Source of the DNA: a virus
Length of the DNA: 64,000 nt
IMG/VR virus record: IMGVR_UViG_3300049440_000308
Span: 62,309-126,308 of that record
Reading direction: 5' to 3' (one strand)
Position 1 is the first letter of the stretch. The number at the start of each line of letters is the position of its first letter. The notes under the pieces are model-generated. The model had not been told where the DNA came from and searched no databases. It saw nothing but the letters and a program-made list of their open reading frames with translations. Shown piece after piece: positions 5,493 through 61,084 of this stretch. Position numbers and translations under genes: made by a program.

Positions 5493-7153
5493 CCGGCTGC
5501 GCTACCTGCTGGAACTGCAGCGGCGCGCGGCGAGGATCAAACCGGGGGTCGCCCGCTACTACCATGACCCGCTGGCGTTCGCCGCCGACTGCATCGACTG
5601 GCGCGGTACTGACGGGCTGACCGGCTACCAGGAGGACATCATCGGGGGCCTGCCGCAGCGTAAGCGCACTGCGGTCCGCGGCCCCCATGGATTAAGGACT
5701 AGGCAAATCGGCTATCTCCGCGGTGACGGTCCTGTGGTTCGCGCTGACCAGGGACGCCGCCGGGGTCGACTGGAAGGTCGCGACGACCGCCGGCGGCTGG
5801 CACCAACTGACACAGTACTTGTGGCCGGAGATCCACAAGTGGTCCGGGCGACTGCGCTGGGACAAGGTCCGCGACGGCCGGCCGTTCACCCGGTCCGAGC
5901 TGCAGAACCTGAACCTGCGGCTCGCCCACGGGCATGCCTTCGCGGGGGCATCCGCTAACGCCGCCCTGATCGAGGGCGCGCACGCCGACTCGCTGCTGTT
6001 CGTGTTCGACGAGTCCAAGGCGATCCCCGCGGGCACCTTCGACGCCTGCGAGGGCGCGTTCTCCGGCGCCGGGGAGGGCGGTACCGAGGCGTTCGCCCTG
6101 GCCCTGTCGACCCCGGGGGCACCGCAGGGCCGCTTCTACGACATCCAGTCACGCCGCCCCGGTTACGAGGACTGGCACCCTGTCCACGTTACCCTCGCCG
6201 CCGCCATGGCCGCCGGGCGGATCACCGCCGAGTGGGCACGGCAGCGCCTGCGGCAGTGGGGCGAGCAGTCAGCGATCTACCAGAACCGTGTCCTCGGGGA
6301 GTTCCACGCCGAGGACGAGGATGCGGTCATCCCCCTCGCCTGGGCGGAGGCCGCAGTGGAACGCTGGCACCAGTGGGAGGCCGCGGGCAAGCCCGACACG
6401 GGCAGGCCTCGTACCGTCGGCGTGGACGTCGCCCGGTTCGGCGGAGACAAGACGGTCCTCGCGGTCCGCAACGGCCCGGTGATCACCGAACTGCGCCGGT
6501 ACACCAAGGAAGACACCATGGCCACCACCGGCCGCGTGAAGGGCATCCTGGCGGCGGACGACTCCCGCATCGCGGTGGTCGACGTGATCGGCATCGGCGC
6601 CGGGGTGGTCGACCGGCTCCGCGAGCAGCACGCCCGCGTCGTGGCGTTCAACGCCTCCCGTGGCTCCAAGGCCCGTGACAGCACGAGGGAGATGGGCTTC
6701 TACAACCGCAGGAGCGAAGCCTGGTGGACGCTCCGGGAAGCCCTCGACCCGTCCGCCGGCCCTGACATCTGCCTGCCCGATGACGAGATGCTCCTCGGTG
6801 ACCTGTCCACCCCTAAGTGGGAGGTCCGTTCCGGAGGCAAGATCCTGGTGGAAAGCACCGATGACATCCGGGAGCGCATCGGCCGTTCCCCCGACGACGG
6901 AACCGCGGTCGTGCAGGCGTTCGTCCCGCATCTCGGCGACGCCTCGCCGGCCACCGTCCGCCAGTGGGCCGGCGCTGCCGGCCTGGCTGACATGGGCGTG
7001 AACGAGGAAACGAAAGCGCACAGGCGGATGCGGGAGATTCAGGGGCGCGCGGCGGAGGGCCTTGAGGACGCGCCTTGGGATCTAGACGGTTTCGGCCCGC
7101 AGGACGAGGCGGAGGCGAGGCCTCGCGGCAACAACGTCAGGACATGGCGGTAG
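5464..7153 (+). CDS. terL: terminase large subunit, interrupted by a 7-nt insert in Walker A (joins 5464-5691 with 5699-7153)
   Basis: AVRGPHG / LGKS Walker A split across frames; Walker B LLFVFDE; RNase H-like nuclease motifs VGVDVARFGGDKT, DVIGIG and SPDDG. Confidence 0.9.
5689..5698 (+). other. candidate translational bypass element GGA-TTAA-GGA
   Basis: Matching GGA codons flank the rare TTA; skipping 7 nt restores GPHGLGKS. Confidence 0.7.
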
Positions 7154-7325: not shown

Positions 7326-7508
7326 GTGAGCCCGATCCTGACCTGGGAAGGCGCCGGAGAGGTGCCGAACTTCTGCCCGCAGGGCTGCGGCGGCATCAGC
7401 GAGGACGTCTACGGCGGCCCCTGCCAGGCCTGCTGGGCTGAGGTTGACCGGGAGGAACAGGCCCGGGACGAGGAGGACGAGCGGTGGCGTCAGGGGCGCG
7501 GCGGCTTA
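7326..7508 (+). CDS. small Cys-containing protein; true end uncertain (runs into a TTA at 7506 and the convergent gene)
   Basis: GC3-rich CPQGC..CQAC segment; weak SD. Confidence 0.35.
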
Positions 7509-7715
7509 GCCCACCACAACTGCCCGACCGCGACCTCACCGCCGGGGTTCTCCCGCAGGAACGCAAGCGCCTGGTCGACCCCGGCCCGGCAGGACGCGCA
7601 GTCGTGCATCAGCCCCAGCGTCCGCACCTGCCCGGGATCCCCGGTGACCGTCCAGTCGGCATGGTGCAGCCGCTCCCCGATGTTCGCCGCGAGCCGCTCC
7701 GACACCTTGCGCAGG
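7490..7715 (-). CDS. hypothetical protein (start uncertain)
   Basis: Minus frame reads as natural protein (HHADWTVTGDPGQVRTLGLMHDCASC) with high GC3. Confidence 0.5.
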
Positions 7716-7815
7716 TCACGCCCGGGACGGCACGCCAGTGCAAGACGTGCACGAAGGCGAAGGCGAAGGAGGCGACGGCCAGGCGCAAGGCTGCGTGACC
7801 TGACCGCTGCCACGG

Positions 7816-7848
7816 AAGGGCCGGGGGCGTTGCGCGTCCCCGGCCCTT
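7816..7848. terminator. GC-rich hairpin
   Basis: AAGGGCCGGGG/CCCCGGCCCTT 11-bp stem. Confidence 0.45.
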
Positions 7849-7891
7849 AGCTATGCCCGCTCCCGTCCCGCCTGTATCGTGGTGCGCAGCG

Positions 7892-7976: not shown

Positions 7977-9587
7977 ATGGTCGATACCCGCTCCGCGAAG
8001 ATCATCGAGTTCCCCGACCTCCCGCCGAAGGGCTCTCCCGGTAACGGCGGTAGAAGGTCCTTGCTAGGGCAAGAACTTGGAACCTCGTTCGATTACGGAC
8101 AGCGCTTGTTCGCCTACTATTTAGGGCGCCGGAGATGTGTTCGATTATGGCTTACCCACCTCGGCGAATTCAGCGCGCGGGACTACCGCCAGATGCTGAG
8201 CCGGAACGGGACTGCTAGCGCTCTCGAAATGGTGCTCACCCTGCCTATCCGTGAGGCCGATTTCAGCATTGAGCCGGGCAAGGGCGACACCGGCGAGTGC
8301 GACTTCGCCCGGTCTGTTCTGCTGACACCTGACTCGGAAGGTGGCATGGTCACGCCGTGGACCACGGTAATGGGCCAGATCACTGCCGGCCAGTTGTACA
8401 AAAAGTCCTTCTTCGAGAAGGTTTTCGGCATCCGTGACCTGGACGGCAAGATCATTTACCGGAAGGTCGCCTACCGTCCCCCGTCGACCTGCCAGGCCCG
8501 CTTCAACGACCGGTCGGGCGAGCCGAACGGGTTCCGGCAGCAGGTGTGGCTGTTCGGCGGCAACCTGGCCATTTCGAACAAGCAGAAGGTCCCCGGGTAC
8601 GTCGATGTCCCGCGTGTCCGCAGTTACGTTTACGTGCACGGCAAGCACCGCGAGCCGTTGAGTGGCGTCAGTGAGGTTGAGGTAACTTACTGGTGCCACC
8701 AGACATCCATGAAGCTGATGTTCCTCTGGATGCAATTTCTTGAGGGGATGGCACTACAGAGGCTGGTGGTGTACGGCAACGACCAGCCGGAGGCCACCCA
8801 GCGAGCCGACGACATCTCCCAGCTCCGCGGCTCCGGCGTCGTCGGCCTGGTGCACCCGATCGACGGCCAGAAGGCATTCGAGGCGATCCCGTCAGCGGGA
8901 GACGCGGGTCATTTCTTCACCGAGGCGCTGGCCTTCCTGCAGAGTTGGTCGATCAGCAGCGTCCTCGCCGGCTTCCTCGGCCTCGCCAGCGCGTCGACCG
9001 GCGGCCGCGGCGCCTACTCGCTGAGCCAGGACCAGAGCGATTTCTACTTGAAATCCCGTCAGGGCGTGGCGAAGGAGATCGCGGAGAGCATCTCCTGTGA
9101 CCTGATCCGCCCGCTGATCCTGCTGAACTTCGGCTCGGGCGCGGCGTTCCCCCAGGCGCGATTCGGCCCGCTGCAGGATGAGCAGGTCCAGATGCTGCTC
9201 ACCATGTTCAGCACCATGTCGGCGGCCCCCGTGCTGCACATTCCACTCGCGGTTTTTGACCTGATCACCGAGCGCATGGCGAGCATCCTGCAGCTTGACG
9301 TGGATCAGGTGCACGAGGCCCTGGTGAGCACCGCGAGCCAGCGGGCGGAGCAGCTGGCGGGTAATCCCCCGCCGGGCATGCCCCCGGAGGCTGCGGCGGG
9401 CCTGGGGCAGCTGCAGGGGCTGGCGACGGCGGGTACGGCGATCGCGCAGCAGGCGGCAGCGAAGCAGGCGGGGAGCACGCCCCCGTCAACCGCACCGCCG
9501 CCGAGGATGCGGATGCCCGCCGCGGGGGCGCCTAAGCCGCCGCAGAACAATCCCATGGCCGGCGGGCTTCCGGGGGCGGGGCAGTGA
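7977..9587 (+). CDS. portal protein (Mu gp29/DUF935-like), with candidate double bypass at 8118-8165
   Basis: Position after terL, size, and portal-like motifs (FFEKVF, YRKVAYRP, VHGKHREPLSG, SVLAGFLGLA..GAYSLSQDQSDF); Pro-rich tail. Confidence 0.85.
   Translation: MVDTRSAKIIEFPDLPPKGSPGNGGRRSLLGQELGTSFDYGQRLFAYYLGRRRCVRLWLTHLGEFSARDYRQMLSRNGTASALEMVLTLPIREADFSIEPGKGDTGECDFARSVLLTPDSEGGMVTPWTTVMGQITAGQLYKKSFFEKVFGIRDLDGKIIYRKVAYRPPSTCQARFNDRSGEPNGFRQQVWLFGGNLAISNKQKVPGYVDVPRVRSYVYVHGKHREPLSGVSEVEVTYWCHQTSMKLMFLWMQFLEGMALQRLVVYGNDQPEATQRADDISQLRGSGVVGLVHPIDGQKAFEAIPSAGDAGHFFTEALAFLQSWSISSVLAGFLGLASASTGGRGAYSLSQDQSDFYLKSRQGVAKEIAESISCDLIRPLILLNFGSGAAFPQARFGPLQDEQVQMLLTMFSTMSAAPVLHIPLAVFDLITERMASILQLDVDQVHEALVSTASQRAEQLAGNPPPGMPPEAAAGLGQLQGLATAGTAIAQQAAAKQAGSTPPSTAPPPRMRMPAAGAPKPPQNNPMAGGLPGAGQ
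8118..8165 (+). other. two candidate bypass elements: TAT-TTAG and GGC-TTACCCACCTC-GGC
   Basis: The +1 frame between them reads GAGDVFDYG; hops of 4 and 14 nt sum to 18 and restore the frame. Confidence 0.65.
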
Positions 9588-11497: not shown

Positions 11498-12103
11498 GTG
11501 CCGGCGCCTAGCGCCCGTGAGGCCCTGCGGCCCGGTGACGTCCTGGTCGTCCGGACGGCCGGGCTGCCCGCGAGGCTGATCCGGGTCGGGGAGGAACTGT
11601 CCGGCAAGGTGGGGCTCGACAACCACGTCGCCTTGTTCAGCCACTGGACCGGCAGTGTCCCGTGGGGCCTGGAGGGAAAACCGGGCGGGGTCGGCTGGGC
11701 GGACCTGCGCCCCTACCTGGCCAGCCATTTCACGGTGAACAACTGCCTGCAGCCGGGCCGTGACGACGCGGGCCGGGCGGAGGTCTGCGCGCAGGCGGGG
11801 CGGATGCTGGGGACCGCCTACGACTGGGAGGCGATCGCGGATGACACGCTGCGGGCTTTTCACATGCCGGACCTGTTCGCGTCCACCTGGCACGGGGCGG
11901 TCCCCGGTCATGTTCTCTGCAGCTCCTACGTCTCGTTCTTGTACGCCCGGCAGGGGTGGGTGCGCCCGCGGGTGCCGGACCGGGACACGGAACCCGGTGA
12001 CTGGACGGCCTTCATCACAGATCACCAGTGGAGTGCGACGATAAGCGCGTTACGGCAGATTGCTGAAGAGAGCGGGGTGCCCCGTGGTAAACATCACCGA
12101 TGA
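11498..12103 (+). CDS. permuted papain-like NlpC/P60 (YiiX/YebB-type) hydrolase
   Basis: PGDVLVV, NHVAL, EG.PGGV, GTAYDW and C-terminal CSS motif order; TTA at 12050. Confidence 0.7.
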   Translation: MPAPSAREALRPGDVLVVRTAGLPARLIRVGEELSGKVGLDNHVALFSHWTGSVPWGLEGKPGGVGWADLRPYLASHFTVNNCLQPGRDDAGRAEVCAQAGRMLGTAYDWEAIADDTLRAFHMPDLFASTWHGAVPGHVLCSSYVSFLYARQGWVRPRVPDRDTEPGDWTAFITDHQWSATISALRQIAEESGVPRGKHHR

Positions 12104-33119: not shown

Positions 33120-33736
33120 CGTTCGGCCGCTACGTGCTGACCGCCAATGTCACCGTCCCCGCGGGCACCGCCGGGTTCTCCGCGGGGGGCCCGGGGGTCA
33201 CCACGACCGCGGTCACCTCCGCGGCACCTGCAGGGGGAACGACGGTCACCTCGCAGGCCGCGGGCCCCGGCTCGGTCCTCCTGTCGTGGACGGTCGCCCT
33301 GCAGACCGCCGCCGCCGCGGGCGACGTGAACAACTTCGGCCTCTACAACGGGGCGGTCCTGCTCGCCACGTCGGTGAACACGGGCACGGTCGCCAGTTTC
33401 CCGCAGGCCGCCGCCGTCACCTACCTGGAGGCCGCCGCCACGGTGGTGAGCGTCAAGAACATCGGCAACGGCACCGCCGGGAGCGTCTACTCGGCCACCC
33501 TCACCCTCACCCCGGCAACGACCGGGGGCGCCAACGGGACCGCCGGGTGGACCGGGGCGGGATCGCCCGCGGCATGGTCGGCGGGCCCGTTCCCCGTGAC
33601 GTTCCTCGCCGGGACGCCGCTGTACCTGGACACCGCCGGGGCCCTGTACGCGGCTCTCGGGGCCGCGAGCCTCCGGGCGTGGATAGACGGAACCGACGGC
33701 CAGCCCCACGGCAAGTGGGGGGCGCTGAGCAACTTA
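33116..33736 (+). CDS. beta-rich structural protein; probable functional end at ...GALSN-TTA (formal ORF runs to 34051)
   Basis: ATGA overlap; C-terminus matches the xSN*/xTN* ends of the next two genes. Confidence 0.6.
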
Positions 33737-33749
33737 TGGGAGCGATACC

Positions 33750-34379
33750 GTGATCATCCAGCCGGCAGTACCCGCGACCAGCGCGGCCGGGACCACGAAC
33801 TTTGTGGCAAATCCCACCTCGAACACCGCCTACGTGACGGTGGGCGCGAACGGCGCCACCATGGCCAACTACTGGGTGTCGGCCGTCTCCGTGGCCACGT
33901 CGGCGACCGGGTTCATGATGACGGTCCCTCCTGGCGGCACCGCGGCGCTGCAGTACACGGTCGCGACCCCCGTCTGGTACTGGAGCGAGTGCACCCCCGC
34001 CCTGCCCGCCAGCACCGTCGCAGCGGTCAACACGACCGGCCGGGACCTTGACGTGATCTTCACCGGCGGCGGGTCCGTCTCCGCGGTCACCATCAACGGG
34101 CTGACCACCAACATCACCCAGGCCCCCACCATGAACACGGGGGCCGTCCCGCTGACCTCCGGGGCCACCATCGCCGTCACCTACACCGGCACCGTCTGCT
34201 GGGCGTGGCTCGACCCGATCTGCATGGTGTCGGTGGGGCACTCCGACGCCAGCAACTACGCGGCGTCCAACACGGTCGCGCCCACCGGGGCCAACGGGTT
34301 CAGCCCCCTCAACACCCTCCCCTACGCGGTGCACGCGGCCACCGGGGCGACCGGCTTCGCGGTGGGCGTGAGCAACTAG
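33750..34379 (+). CDS. Thr/Ala-rich structural protein with an internal repeat
   Basis: GGGAG SD; two ...GxTxAxxYTxxxxxW repeats; ends GVSN*. Confidence 0.7.
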   Translation: MIIQPAVPATSAAGTTNFVANPTSNTAYVTVGANGATMANYWVSAVSVATSATGFMMTVPPGGTAALQYTVATPVWYWSECTPALPASTVAAVNTTGRDLDVIFTGGGSVSAVTINGLTTNITQAPTMNTGAVPLTSGATIAVTYTGTVCWAWLDPICMVSVGHSDASNYAASNTVAPTGANGFSPLNTLPYAVHAATGATGFAVGVSN

Positions 34380-60773: not shown

Positions 60774-60974
60774 CTACTCCGGCTGCACCGGGATGCCCGC
60801 GAGCAGCGCCCGGACTTCGGTTTCCCGGTAGCGGCGGTGGTTGCCGAGGGTGCGGATCGACGTGAGCTTCCCCGCCTTCGCCCACCGGGTGACGGTCTTC
60901 GGGTCGACGCGGAACATCGTGGCGACCTCCGCCGGGGTCAGCAGCGGCTCGGCCTCCGGGTGCCTTGTGCTCAT
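60774..60974 (-). CDS. bldC: BldC-family MerR-like HTH regulator
   Basis: EPLLTPAEVATMFRVDPKTVTRWAKAGKLTSIRTLG.HRRYRE.EVRALLAGIP matches Streptomyces BldC as I recall it. Confidence 0.9.
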   Translation of the reverse strand: MSTRHPEAEPLLTPAEVATMFRVDPKTVTRWAKAGKLTSIRTLGNHRRYRETEVRALLAGIPVQPE

Positions 60975-61084
60975 CTCTCGGTATTCCTCTCCCTTTAACG
61001 CGATATGGTTTCAGTCGTCGCAATACGGGGTGATCTTCCCTGTCCTGTCCCCGGCCGGAGTGCGATCCGGCCGGGAACGGGGAA

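What the first reader, a model, noticed from the sequence alone, without database searches (positions are those of the whole stretch)
8112..8171. Portal gene hides a frame-compensated double bypass, each hop triggered by TTA
Seen: the annotated frame reads AYY-L(TTA)GRRRCVRL(TTA)WLTHL-GEF, with two TTAs in 14 codons. The +1 frame between 8125 and 8151 reads GAGDVFDYG, which echoes the upstream FDYG, and is followed by another TTA (8152). Hop 1: TAT(8118) to TAG(8122), a 2/3 match, 4 nt. Hop 2: GGC(8149) to GGC(8163), a perfect match, 14 nt. The total is 18 nt, so the frame is restored, giving FAYY-GAGDVFDYG-EFSARDY. Reading UUA at the second site instead leads to a TGA near 8197. Because frame 0 stays open, standard annotation would miss this. 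Inference: a second essential packaging gene is under the same UUA switch, with an AND-type double gate.
Basis: partly seen in the sequence, partly recalled or inferred. Interest (0 to 1): 0.92.

Follow-up and report, generated by a model that had tools for sequence, protein, structure and literature searches.

The report
Portal gene needs two ribosome hops
The portal gene of this uncultured high-GC soil phage only encodes a motif that all its relatives share if ribosomes skip 4 and then 14 bases, each gap starting with the very rare codon TTA; this is a new, comparatively well-supported case of a very rare way of reading genes.

Summary
Frame 0 of the portal ORF (7977-9587) reads FAYY-LGRRRCVRLWLTHL-GEF. 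The +1 frame at 8125-8151 reads GAGDVFDYG.

Seventy-nine uninterrupted homologs read FAYYG.GDVFDYGE in one frame, with GDVFDYG invariant.

Related portal genes carry 47 different short inserts (2-19 nt, mostly not multiples of 3) at 11 codon positions.
- 41 start with in-frame TTA and 5 with TGA or TAG.
- The last triplet of the insert matches the preceding codon far better than chance.
- The split motif varies almost only at third codon positions.
- All 24 members of the window's clade carry at least one insert.

TTA is the rarest sense codon of this 71% GC phage. Its terminase gene also needs a 7-nt TTA-led skip.

Best reading (about 0.8): UUA-triggered translational bypassing, as proposed and partly shown for Streptomyces phage phiHau3 terminase, here in a portal gene. 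That the frame is restored appears incidental. A regulatory "switch" is untested.

The scan saw the same device before on other DNA (e1-3440095, e1-3291516).

The parts
7977..9587 (+). Portal gene as an uninterrupted frame-0 ORF (536 aa). The predicted functional product is 530 aa after two skips.
   Evidence: Pfam Portal_Mu, 6.8e-24. PHROG 113 portal. ORF list.
8118..8120 (+). Take-off codon 1, TAT (Tyr48)
   Evidence: Last codon shared with homologs before gap 1.
8121..8124 (+). Coding gap 1, TTAG: in-frame rare TTA in the A site. Its last three bases, TAG, are a 2/3 match to TAT and form a +1-frame stop.
   Evidence: Relatives have TTAT, TTAC or TTAA at the same place.
8125..8151 (+). +1-frame segment encoding GAGDVFDYG, the family's invariant motif
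   Evidence: Invariant in 79 homologs. Variable sites at codon positions 1/2/3 are 1/1/9 in 29 insert-bearing loci.
8149..8151 (+). Take-off codon 2, GGC (Gly)
8152..8165 (+). Coding gap 2, 14 nt, starting with TTA and ending with the landing triplet GGC (8163-8165), identical to the take-off codon
   Evidence: L001 differs by one base inside the gap. L014 and L036 have another 14-nt version. L107, L121 and L122 have 11-nt versions.
8166..8168 (+). Resume codon GAA (Glu), back in frame 0
   Evidence: Homologs read ...FDYG-E....
8197..8199 (+). TGA that ends the +1 frame if the TTA at 8152 is decoded instead of skipped
5689..5698 (+). Context: terminase large-subunit hop, GGA [TTAAGGA], which restores the Walker A motif RGPHG|LGKS
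   Evidence: Relative L015 reads RGPHGLGKSA in one frame. The body 5699-7153 matches PHROG 2 terminase, 2.5e-24.

Best explanation
The functional portal protein is made by two programmed translational bypasses (ribosome hops).

Hop 1: with peptidyl-tRNA-Tyr on UAU 8118-8120 and the rare codon UUA 8121-8123 in the A site, the ribosome pauses. The peptidyl-tRNA lets go, the mRNA slides 4 nt, and the tRNA re-pairs with UAG 8122-8124. GGC 8125 is read next.

Hop 2: nine codons later the same happens with peptidyl-tRNA-Gly on GGC 8149-8151 and UUA 8152-8154. The slide is 14 nt to the identical GGC 8163-8165, and GAA 8166 is read next.

The product reads ...RLFAYY-GAGDVFDYG-EFSARDY... and is 530 aa long.

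Shown here: the sequence anatomy, the need for the +1 segment, the rules shared by 47 inserts in relatives, and the rarity of TTA. Inferred: that the ribosome performs the skip, that slow UUA decoding in the unknown high-GC actinobacterial host triggers it, and that it may tie portal and terminase supply to tRNA-Leu(UAA) availability.
For: 1. Seventy-nine uninterrupted homologs read FAYYG.GDVFDYGE with GDVFDYG invariant and no length variation.
2. Frameshift-aware alignment of 72 unique related loci plus L121 and L122 finds 47 unique inserts at 11 codon positions. Of these, 41 are TTA-led and 5 are TGA- or TAG-led, with lengths of 2-19 nt.
3. Landing triplets match take-off codons at 2.1 of 3 positions, against 0.98 in permutations (0 of 10,000 as high). 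All 4-nt inserts (TTAN) follow a Tyr codon (TAT or TAC), so that TAN can re-pair.
4. The split motif is under purifying selection in its own frame: variable sites at codon positions 1/2/3 are 1/1/9, and pairwise differences are 1740 synonymous against 271 non-synonymous.
5. All 24 rows of the window's clade (support 100/97) carry at least one insert, at positions that differ between close kin. There are 4 scattered carriers among 45 rows of the sister clade.
6. TTA is the rarest sense codon of the genome, it is absent from the rest of nearly all full-length portal ORFs, and neither this genome nor five relatives' records carry a tRNA-Leu gene.
7. The same genome's terminase needs an uncompensated 7-nt TTA-led hop, GGA to GGA.
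8. The architecture equals phiHau3 terminase: GGC [10-nt TTA-led gap ending GGT] and TCT [10-nt TTA-led gap ending TCC]. For phiHau3, full-length protein was detected in Streptomyces, and a junction peptide in E. coli with UAA in place of UUA (PMC10732093).
9. Twenty-eight of 41 TTA-led inserts put a stop (TAA or TAG) in the +1 frame at once. This rules out a simple +1 shift there. It also fits the reported twofold gain from a +1-frame stop in the phiHau3 gap.
Against: - There is no protein, ribosome-profiling or RNA data for this phage.
- The host is unknown, so limiting tRNA-Leu(UAA) is assumed from the 71% GC content and from the Streptomyces precedent.
- No stimulatory RNA structure was detected (z-scores -0.2 and +1.05).
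- The landing triplet of hop 1 (UAG) matches only 2 of 3 positions.
- Two hops in series multiply their inefficiencies, although a virion needs only 12 portal subunits.
- In this genome frame 0 stays open, so a full-length protein is also made by ordinary decoding and cannot be excluded as functional from sequence alone.
- The AlphaFold2 monomer model gives pLDDT below 50 for the motif, so there is no structural argument that it is indispensable.
Confidence: 0.8

Rival explanations
1. Ordinary triplet decoding of frame 0 gives the functional portal. On this view a compensated pair of frameshift mutations replaced GAGDVFDYG with LGRRRCVRLWLTHL, and the protein tolerates the change.
For: Frame 0 is open from 7977 to 9587. 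The motif lies upstream of the Pfam Portal_Mu domain, which starts at residue 70. It is modelled with low confidence.
Against: - The +1 segment keeps the invariant motif, with changes almost only at third positions, across insert-bearing relatives.
- In the nearest sister L023 the gaps are 7 and 13 nt, so they do not compensate and ordinary decoding truncates the protein.
- Frame 0 would need two TTA codons in 9 codons, in a gene that otherwise has none.
- The terminase of the same genome cannot be rescued by ordinary decoding.
Confidence: 0.05
2. The recoding is a single-base frameshift, not a hop: a +1 shift at site 1 and a -1 shift at site 2. The gap bases are then translated and extra residues remain in the protein.
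For: The gap lengths, 4 (= 3+1) and 14 (= 15-1), fit +1 and -1 shifts. Hungry codons are known to promote frameshifting (my own knowledge of prfB and Ty elements). A -1 shift at site 2 meets no stop codon.
Against: - A +1 shift at site 1 lands on TAG 8122.
- Twenty-eight of 41 TTA-led inserts place TAA or TAG in the +1 frame.
- No homolog shows any length variation in the motif.
- Inserts of every length class occur at the same codon positions.
- The phiHau3 junction peptide showed bypass, not frameshift.
Confidence: 0.07
3. The N-terminal 72 codons are dispensable or untranslated in this clade, the portal starts at Met73 as gene callers assume for relatives, and the inserts are neutral debris.
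For: The closest database homologs are all called from the Met73 equivalent, at 464 aa.
Against: - Codons on both sides of and between the inserts are under purifying selection.
- The inserts are not random: 46 of 47 start with TTA or a stop codon, and their landing triplets match the take-off codon.
- A Shine-Dalgarno-like GGAGG precedes ATG 7977.
- The 464-aa calls are what a gene finder returns for a frame-broken gene.
Confidence: 0.04
4. The gaps are removed or corrected at the RNA level, by editing or slippage, before translation.
For: Nothing specific. It cannot be excluded because no RNA data exist (one search lists no RNA run).
Against: There are no homopolymer runs for polymerase slippage. 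Gaps of 4-19 nt are too short for any known intron. The match between take-off and landing triplets is a property of tRNA re-pairing.
Confidence: 0.03

Closest known systems
UUA-mediated translational bypassing in the large terminase gene of Streptomyces phage phiHau3 and two prophages (Smith et al. 2013; Antonov et al. 2023, PMC10732093)
   Same: A short frame-breaking insert starts with in-frame TTA directly after the last conserved codon. The last triplet of the insert is synonymous with or close to the take-off codon: phiHau3 has GGC...GGT and TCT...TCC. The phage is a high-GC actinophage, the gene is a packaging gene, and one gene carries two gaps. One phiHau3 gap differs by a single base-length change from a portal insert found in three relatives.
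   Different: - The gene is the portal, not the terminase.
- The gaps are 4 and 14 nt rather than 10 and 10.
- Landing triplet 1 is a stop triplet with a 2/3 match.
- The two gaps happen to restore the frame, so annotation sees an intact ORF.
- Relatives show a hotspot of 47 inserts at 11 positions, some led by a stop codon, whereas 3 of 100 terminase genes carried inserts in the 2023 survey.
Phage T4 gene 60 bypass (50-nt gap)
   Same: Matched take-off and landing Gly codons, a non-decoded codon in the A site at take-off, and peptidyl-tRNA retained during the slide.
   Different: The gap is 50 nt. Bypass depends on a take-off stem-loop, a 5' stem-loop, a nascent-peptide signal and a stop codon. 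No significant structure is found here, the gaps are far shorter, and the pause codon is a sense codon.
'Byp' elements in Magnusiomyces mitochondria (Lang et al. 2014; from my own knowledge)
   Same: Many inserts in many positions of conserved genes, matched take-off and landing codons, and a gap that starts with an unassigned or stop codon. Turnover between relatives is rapid.
   Different: Those are 27-55 nt GC-rich mobile elements with stem-loops in a fungal organelle. Here the inserts are 2-19 nt, in a phage, and concentrated in one short stretch of one gene.
Low-level hopping and +1 frameshifting at hungry or stop codons in E. coli (Weiss 1987, Gallant and Lindsley 1998, prfB; from my own knowledge)
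   Same: An empty A site lets the P-site tRNA re-pair a few bases downstream on a similar triplet.
   Different: Those events, prfB aside, are errors or engineered. Here the event is needed for an essential virion protein and is maintained across a clade.
Mycobacteriophage Bxb1 gp50/51 primase junction (PMC12646305)
   Same: A rare UUA stands at a frame junction in an actinophage, and the authors suggested it might be bypassed.
   Different: The mechanism there is undecided between frameshift and bypass, and the gene is a replication gene.

Membership tests
UUA-mediated translational bypass (phiHau3 type) | The coding sequence is interrupted by a short insert that is absent from uninterrupted homologs, whose flanks are adjacent | tested here: met
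   79 homologs read FAYYG.GDVFDYGE without a break.
UUA-mediated translational bypass (phiHau3 type) | The insert begins with an in-frame UUA immediately 3' of the take-off codon | tested here: met
   TTA at 8121 and 8152. 41 of 47 inserts in relatives begin this way.
UUA-mediated translational bypass (phiHau3 type) | The landing triplet is cognate or near-cognate to the take-off codon | tested here: met
   GGC/GGC matches 3/3 and TAT/TAG matches 2/3. The family-wide mean is 2.1 against 0.98 by permutation.
UUA-mediated translational bypass (phiHau3 type) | UUA is exceptionally rare in the phage genome | tested here: met
   13 of 26,872 codons, the rarest sense codon.
UUA-mediated translational bypass (phiHau3 type) | The host has limiting or developmentally regulated tRNA-Leu(UAA) (bldA) | not testable with these tools
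   The host is unknown. The closest cultured phages infect Streptomyces, at 34% portal identity. The phage encodes a BldC-family regulator.
UUA-mediated translational bypass (phiHau3 type) | A trans-frame product with the predicted junction is made | not testable with these tools
   No proteomic or RNA data exist.
T4 gene 60-type bypass | A gap of about 50 nt with a take-off stem-loop and a stop codon after the take-off codon | tested here: not met
   The gaps are 4 and 14 nt and the pause codon is a sense codon. Folds are no better than shuffles.
Programmed +1 ribosomal frameshift (prfB / Ty type) | A one-base shift after which every following triplet is translated | tested here: not met
   A +1 shift at site 1 reads TAG at once. 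Site 2 would need a -1 shift and would add 5 residues that no homolog has.

The most novel reading that the evidence does not exclude
The whole clade keeps at least one TTA-led gap in the first 150 codons of the portal gene while the positions turn over, and this phage also has one in the terminase P-loop. This suggests a selected sensor that couples virion packaging to the host's tRNA-Leu(UAA) state. In this genome the frame-compensated pair would add a second layer. When UUA is decoded, a full-length portal with a scrambled 14-residue segment is made, and it could poison the 12-subunit portal ring. That would turn a leaky toll into a sharp dominant-negative switch.
Probability: 0.15. Interest if true: 0.9.

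Novelty: new member of a known kind. Interest (0 to 1): 0.78.

Why it matters
Translational bypassing is among the rarest recoding events. The established or proposed cases are T4 gene 60 and its kin, the yeast-mitochondrial byps, and three actinophage terminase genes.

This portal gene and its relatives offer a natural series of 47 short gaps with clear shared rules:
- a rare or stop codon comes first;
- the landing triplet matches the take-off codon at two or three positions;
- the gap is at most 19 nt long;
- a +1-frame stop is often present.

This makes two things directly testable: the sequence requirements of short-range hopping, and the ten-year-old proposal that actinophages read the host's bldA state through UUA.

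There is also a practical point. Gene callers truncate these portals to 464 aa or, as here, report an intact but wrong 536-aa protein.

Tried and rejected
- **RNA structure.** Folds of 8100-8185 and 8121-8170 are no better than shuffles, so I claim no stimulatory stem-loop.
- **Structure prediction.** An AlphaFold2 model of an uninterrupted homolog with 79 aligned sequences has mean pLDDT 65 and gives pLDDT below 50 for residues 37-66. It says nothing about the role of the motif.
- **DNA search of cultured phages.** No match. A protein search reaches only 34% identity, to Streptomyces phages.
- **Frame compensation as a selected feature.** Ten of 20 arrangements sum to a multiple of 3, p = 0.09, and the arrangements are not independent. 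I do not claim it.
- **A hop at the TTA at 7506.** I suspected one and then rejected it. GC3 stays highest in the same frame on both sides, 0.90 and 0.92.
- **GC3 frame-switch scan of the whole 131-kb genome.** The hits outside the window (genome positions 9043 and 35810) are the antisense of leftward genes or TAA stops of convergent genes.
- **tRNA search.** There are no tRNA genes in this genome. One relative has only a tRNA with anticodon CAT.
- **RNA evidence.** No RNA run holds the stretch.

Full report
**What is in the sequence.**
The portal ORF runs from 7977 to 9587 on the + strand and encodes 536 aa. It matches Pfam Portal_Mu at 6.8e-24 and PHROG 113.

Frame 0 reads ...RLFAYY-LGRRRCVRLWLTHL-GEFSARDY..., with TTA at 8121 and 8145. 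The +1 frame reads TAG (8122), then GAGDVFDYG (8125-8151), then TTA (8152), and ends at TGA 8197.

- TAT 8118, then a 4-nt gap TTAG, then GGC 8125;
- GGC 8149, then a 14-nt gap that ends in GGC 8163-8165, then GAA 8166.

The two gaps total 18 nt, so frame 0 stays open.

**Not an artefact.**
IMG/VR contig L001 encodes a 94% identical protein and has both gaps, with one substitution inside gap 2. Contigs of four other soil and freshwater metagenome studies lie across 8033-8207 without gaps. A few related contigs carry one extra base in gap 1.

**The homolog test.**
A search of 5.8 billion proteins returned 378 relatives. Those called full length read QRLFAYYG.GDVFDYGE.(S/T)ARDMK in a single frame. 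In an alignment of 79 of them, G, V, F, D, Y and G of the motif are invariant and there is no length variation. This is exactly the product the double skip predicts.

The closest relatives, at 80-92% identity, are all called from the Met73 equivalent at 464 aa. That is what a gene finder returns when the 5' part is frame-broken. Two others, P0033 and P0034, share the odd frame-0 peptide. Their DNA has gaps of 4 + 11 nt around a +1-frame GEGDVFDYG.

**A hotspot of gaps in the family.**
I aligned a gap-free relative's protein to the DNA of 72 unique related loci with a frameshift-aware dynamic program. I then normalised each insert to the in-frame codon after the last conserved codon. I also scanned the rest of the gene.

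With L121 and L122 added, there are 47 unique inserts at 11 codon positions, ten in codons 35-67 and one at residue 146.
- 41 begin with TTA and 5 with TGA or TAG. One is ambiguous but also lies at a TTA.
- Lengths run from 2 to 19 nt, and in the 40 inserts only 3 are multiples of 3.
- The last triplet of the insert matches the preceding codon at 2.1 of 3 positions on average, against 0.98 when landing triplets are permuted among inserts (0 of 10,000 permutations as high).

The pattern follows tRNA logic:
- four-base inserts (TTAN) occur only after a Tyr codon (TAT or TAC), where TAN can re-pair;
- TTC is followed by gaps that end in NTC or TTT;
- GAT by gaps that end mostly in GAA;
- GGY by gaps that end in GGN, AGC, GAC or TGC;
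- ACY by gaps that end in ACC or GCC;
- CAA by a gap that ends in CAA.

These inserts are partly related by descent, so the permutation figure overstates independence. Even so, eleven positions and several unrelated inserts per position remain.

**The split motif is translated.**
In the 29 insert-bearing loci the nine codons of G.GDVFDYG vary at all nine third positions. They vary at only one first and one second position, both in the free x codon. Pairwise codon differences are 1740 synonymous and 271 non-synonymous. The flanks behave like normal coding sequence. So each piece is read in its own frame and the pieces must be joined without extra residues.

**Distribution.**
On a maximum-likelihood tree of residues 70-470, the window falls in a clade of 24 rows (support 100/97). 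Every row of this clade has one to four inserts. The positions differ between close kin; for example, L002, L003 and L007 each have a different set.

The sister clade of 45 rows has four scattered carriers. Persistence of at least one gap, despite turnover of positions, argues for maintenance over mere tolerance. Shared ancestry weakens that argument.

**Why TTA.**
The record is a 131,159-bp virus contig with 70.9% GC and no tRNA genes. In a crude GC3-based gene model, TTA is the rarest sense codon, at 13 of 26,872. Nearly all full-length related portal ORFs have no TTA outside the gaps.

Twenty-eight of 41 TTA-led inserts have a purine next, which puts TAA or TAG in the +1 frame. A simple +1 shift is therefore unproductive there, including at site 1 of the window.

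**Same genome, second gene.**
The terminase large subunit (5699-7153, PHROG 2 at 2.5e-24) is preceded, in another frame, by ...RGPH GGA TTAAGGA CTA GGC AAA TCG. Skipping the 7 nt from GGA to GGA gives the P-loop RGPHGLGKS. Relative L015 reads RGPHGLGKSA without interruption. This skip is not frame-compensated, so the phage must be able to pass TTA-led gaps.

**What is known.**
Smith et al. (2013) proposed UUA-mediated bypassing for the terminase of Streptomyces phage phiHau3. Antonov et al. (2023; PMC10732093) reported the following:
- they found it in 3 of 100 terminase genes;
- they detected full-length protein in Streptomyces;
- they obtained a junction peptide in E. coli when UUA was replaced by UAA;
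- a +1-frame stop in the gap doubled recoding.

I read the phiHau3 DNA. It has GGC followed by a 10-nt TTA-led gap ending in GGT, and TCT followed by a 10-nt TTA-led gap ending in TCC. This is the same architecture. The second phiHau3 gap is nearly the same string as a portal insert found in three relatives.

Full-text searches found no report of a portal case. Earlier notes of this scan describe the same device in portal genes of other genomes (e1-3440095, followed up; e1-3291516).

**Verdict.**
The reading as a double TTA-triggered bypass is the best supported, at about 0.8. It is a new member of the phiHau3 kind, in a different packaging gene, and it comes with an unusually rich comparative series.

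Three things remain unshown: the product itself, the host, and any regulatory role. Frame compensation is probably incidental. It does mean that ordinary decoding here yields a full-length variant portal rather than a truncated one, whose fate is an open question.

Noticed in passing
window 5689-5698 (terminase, body 5699-7153): The terminase large-subunit P-loop is split by a 7-nt TTA-led gap, GGA [TTAAGGA] CTA GGC AAA TCG. Skipping it gives RGPHGLGKS, and relative L015 has this uninterrupted.
   Followed up: yes
window 33731-33752: ORF 33116-... has an in-frame TTA at 33734 and no stop for about 105 codons, while GC3 switches to the +1 frame. The next ORF (GTG 33750-34379) has its own GGGAG ribosome-binding site and matches the C-terminal end of tail-spike PHROG 11182. 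Either this is a 16-nt hop from AAC to ACC that fuses the two, or the upstream gene effectively ends at UUA.
   Followed up: partly
window 12050 and 51836: In-frame TTA codons lie 18 and 8 codons before the ends of two genes. The one at 12050 lies about 35 nt before the next gene's apparent start, which recalls the UUA-ending upstream ORF of adpA.
   Followed up: no
window 7506: An in-frame TTA in the Arg-rich ORF 7326-7850 is not accompanied by any frame change (GC3 0.90 before and 0.92 after, in the same frame).
   Followed up: yes
window 60774-61010 (- strand): The phage encodes a BldC-family developmental regulator (NCBIfam NF033787, 101.9 bits against a cut-off of 77). This fits a Streptomyces-like host.
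   Followed up: partly
L011, L012, L013, L015, L038 (portal residue 146): A further hop site: TTC TTC, then an 8- or 10-nt TTA-led gap ending in GTC, then GAG. L013, which has no gap in the N-terminal motif, has this one.
   Followed up: partly
L019 / L032 (portal codon after FAYY): An in-frame TGA stands where all relatives have a Gly codon (TAC TGA TCC GGG). This may be readthrough, a 3-nt skip or a dead gene.
   Followed up: no
L003-L006 upstream flank; L018, L019; protein P0055: In some relatives, intein-like insertions interrupt the terminase P-loop (GLGK...HN|S). Large insertions interrupt the portal gene; P0055 carries a LAGLIDADG domain.
   Followed up: no
L119 (phiHau3) 991-1000 versus portal inserts in L010, L011, L065: The second phiHau3 terminase gap and a recurrent portal gap are almost the same 10-mer (TTAACGG.TC type). 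This could reflect a shared constraint or a common origin.
   Followed up: no
G000 contig end (genome 131,130-131,159): The contig ends in a run of about 15 G, which is probably an assembly or sequencing artefact at the end of the record.
   Followed up: no
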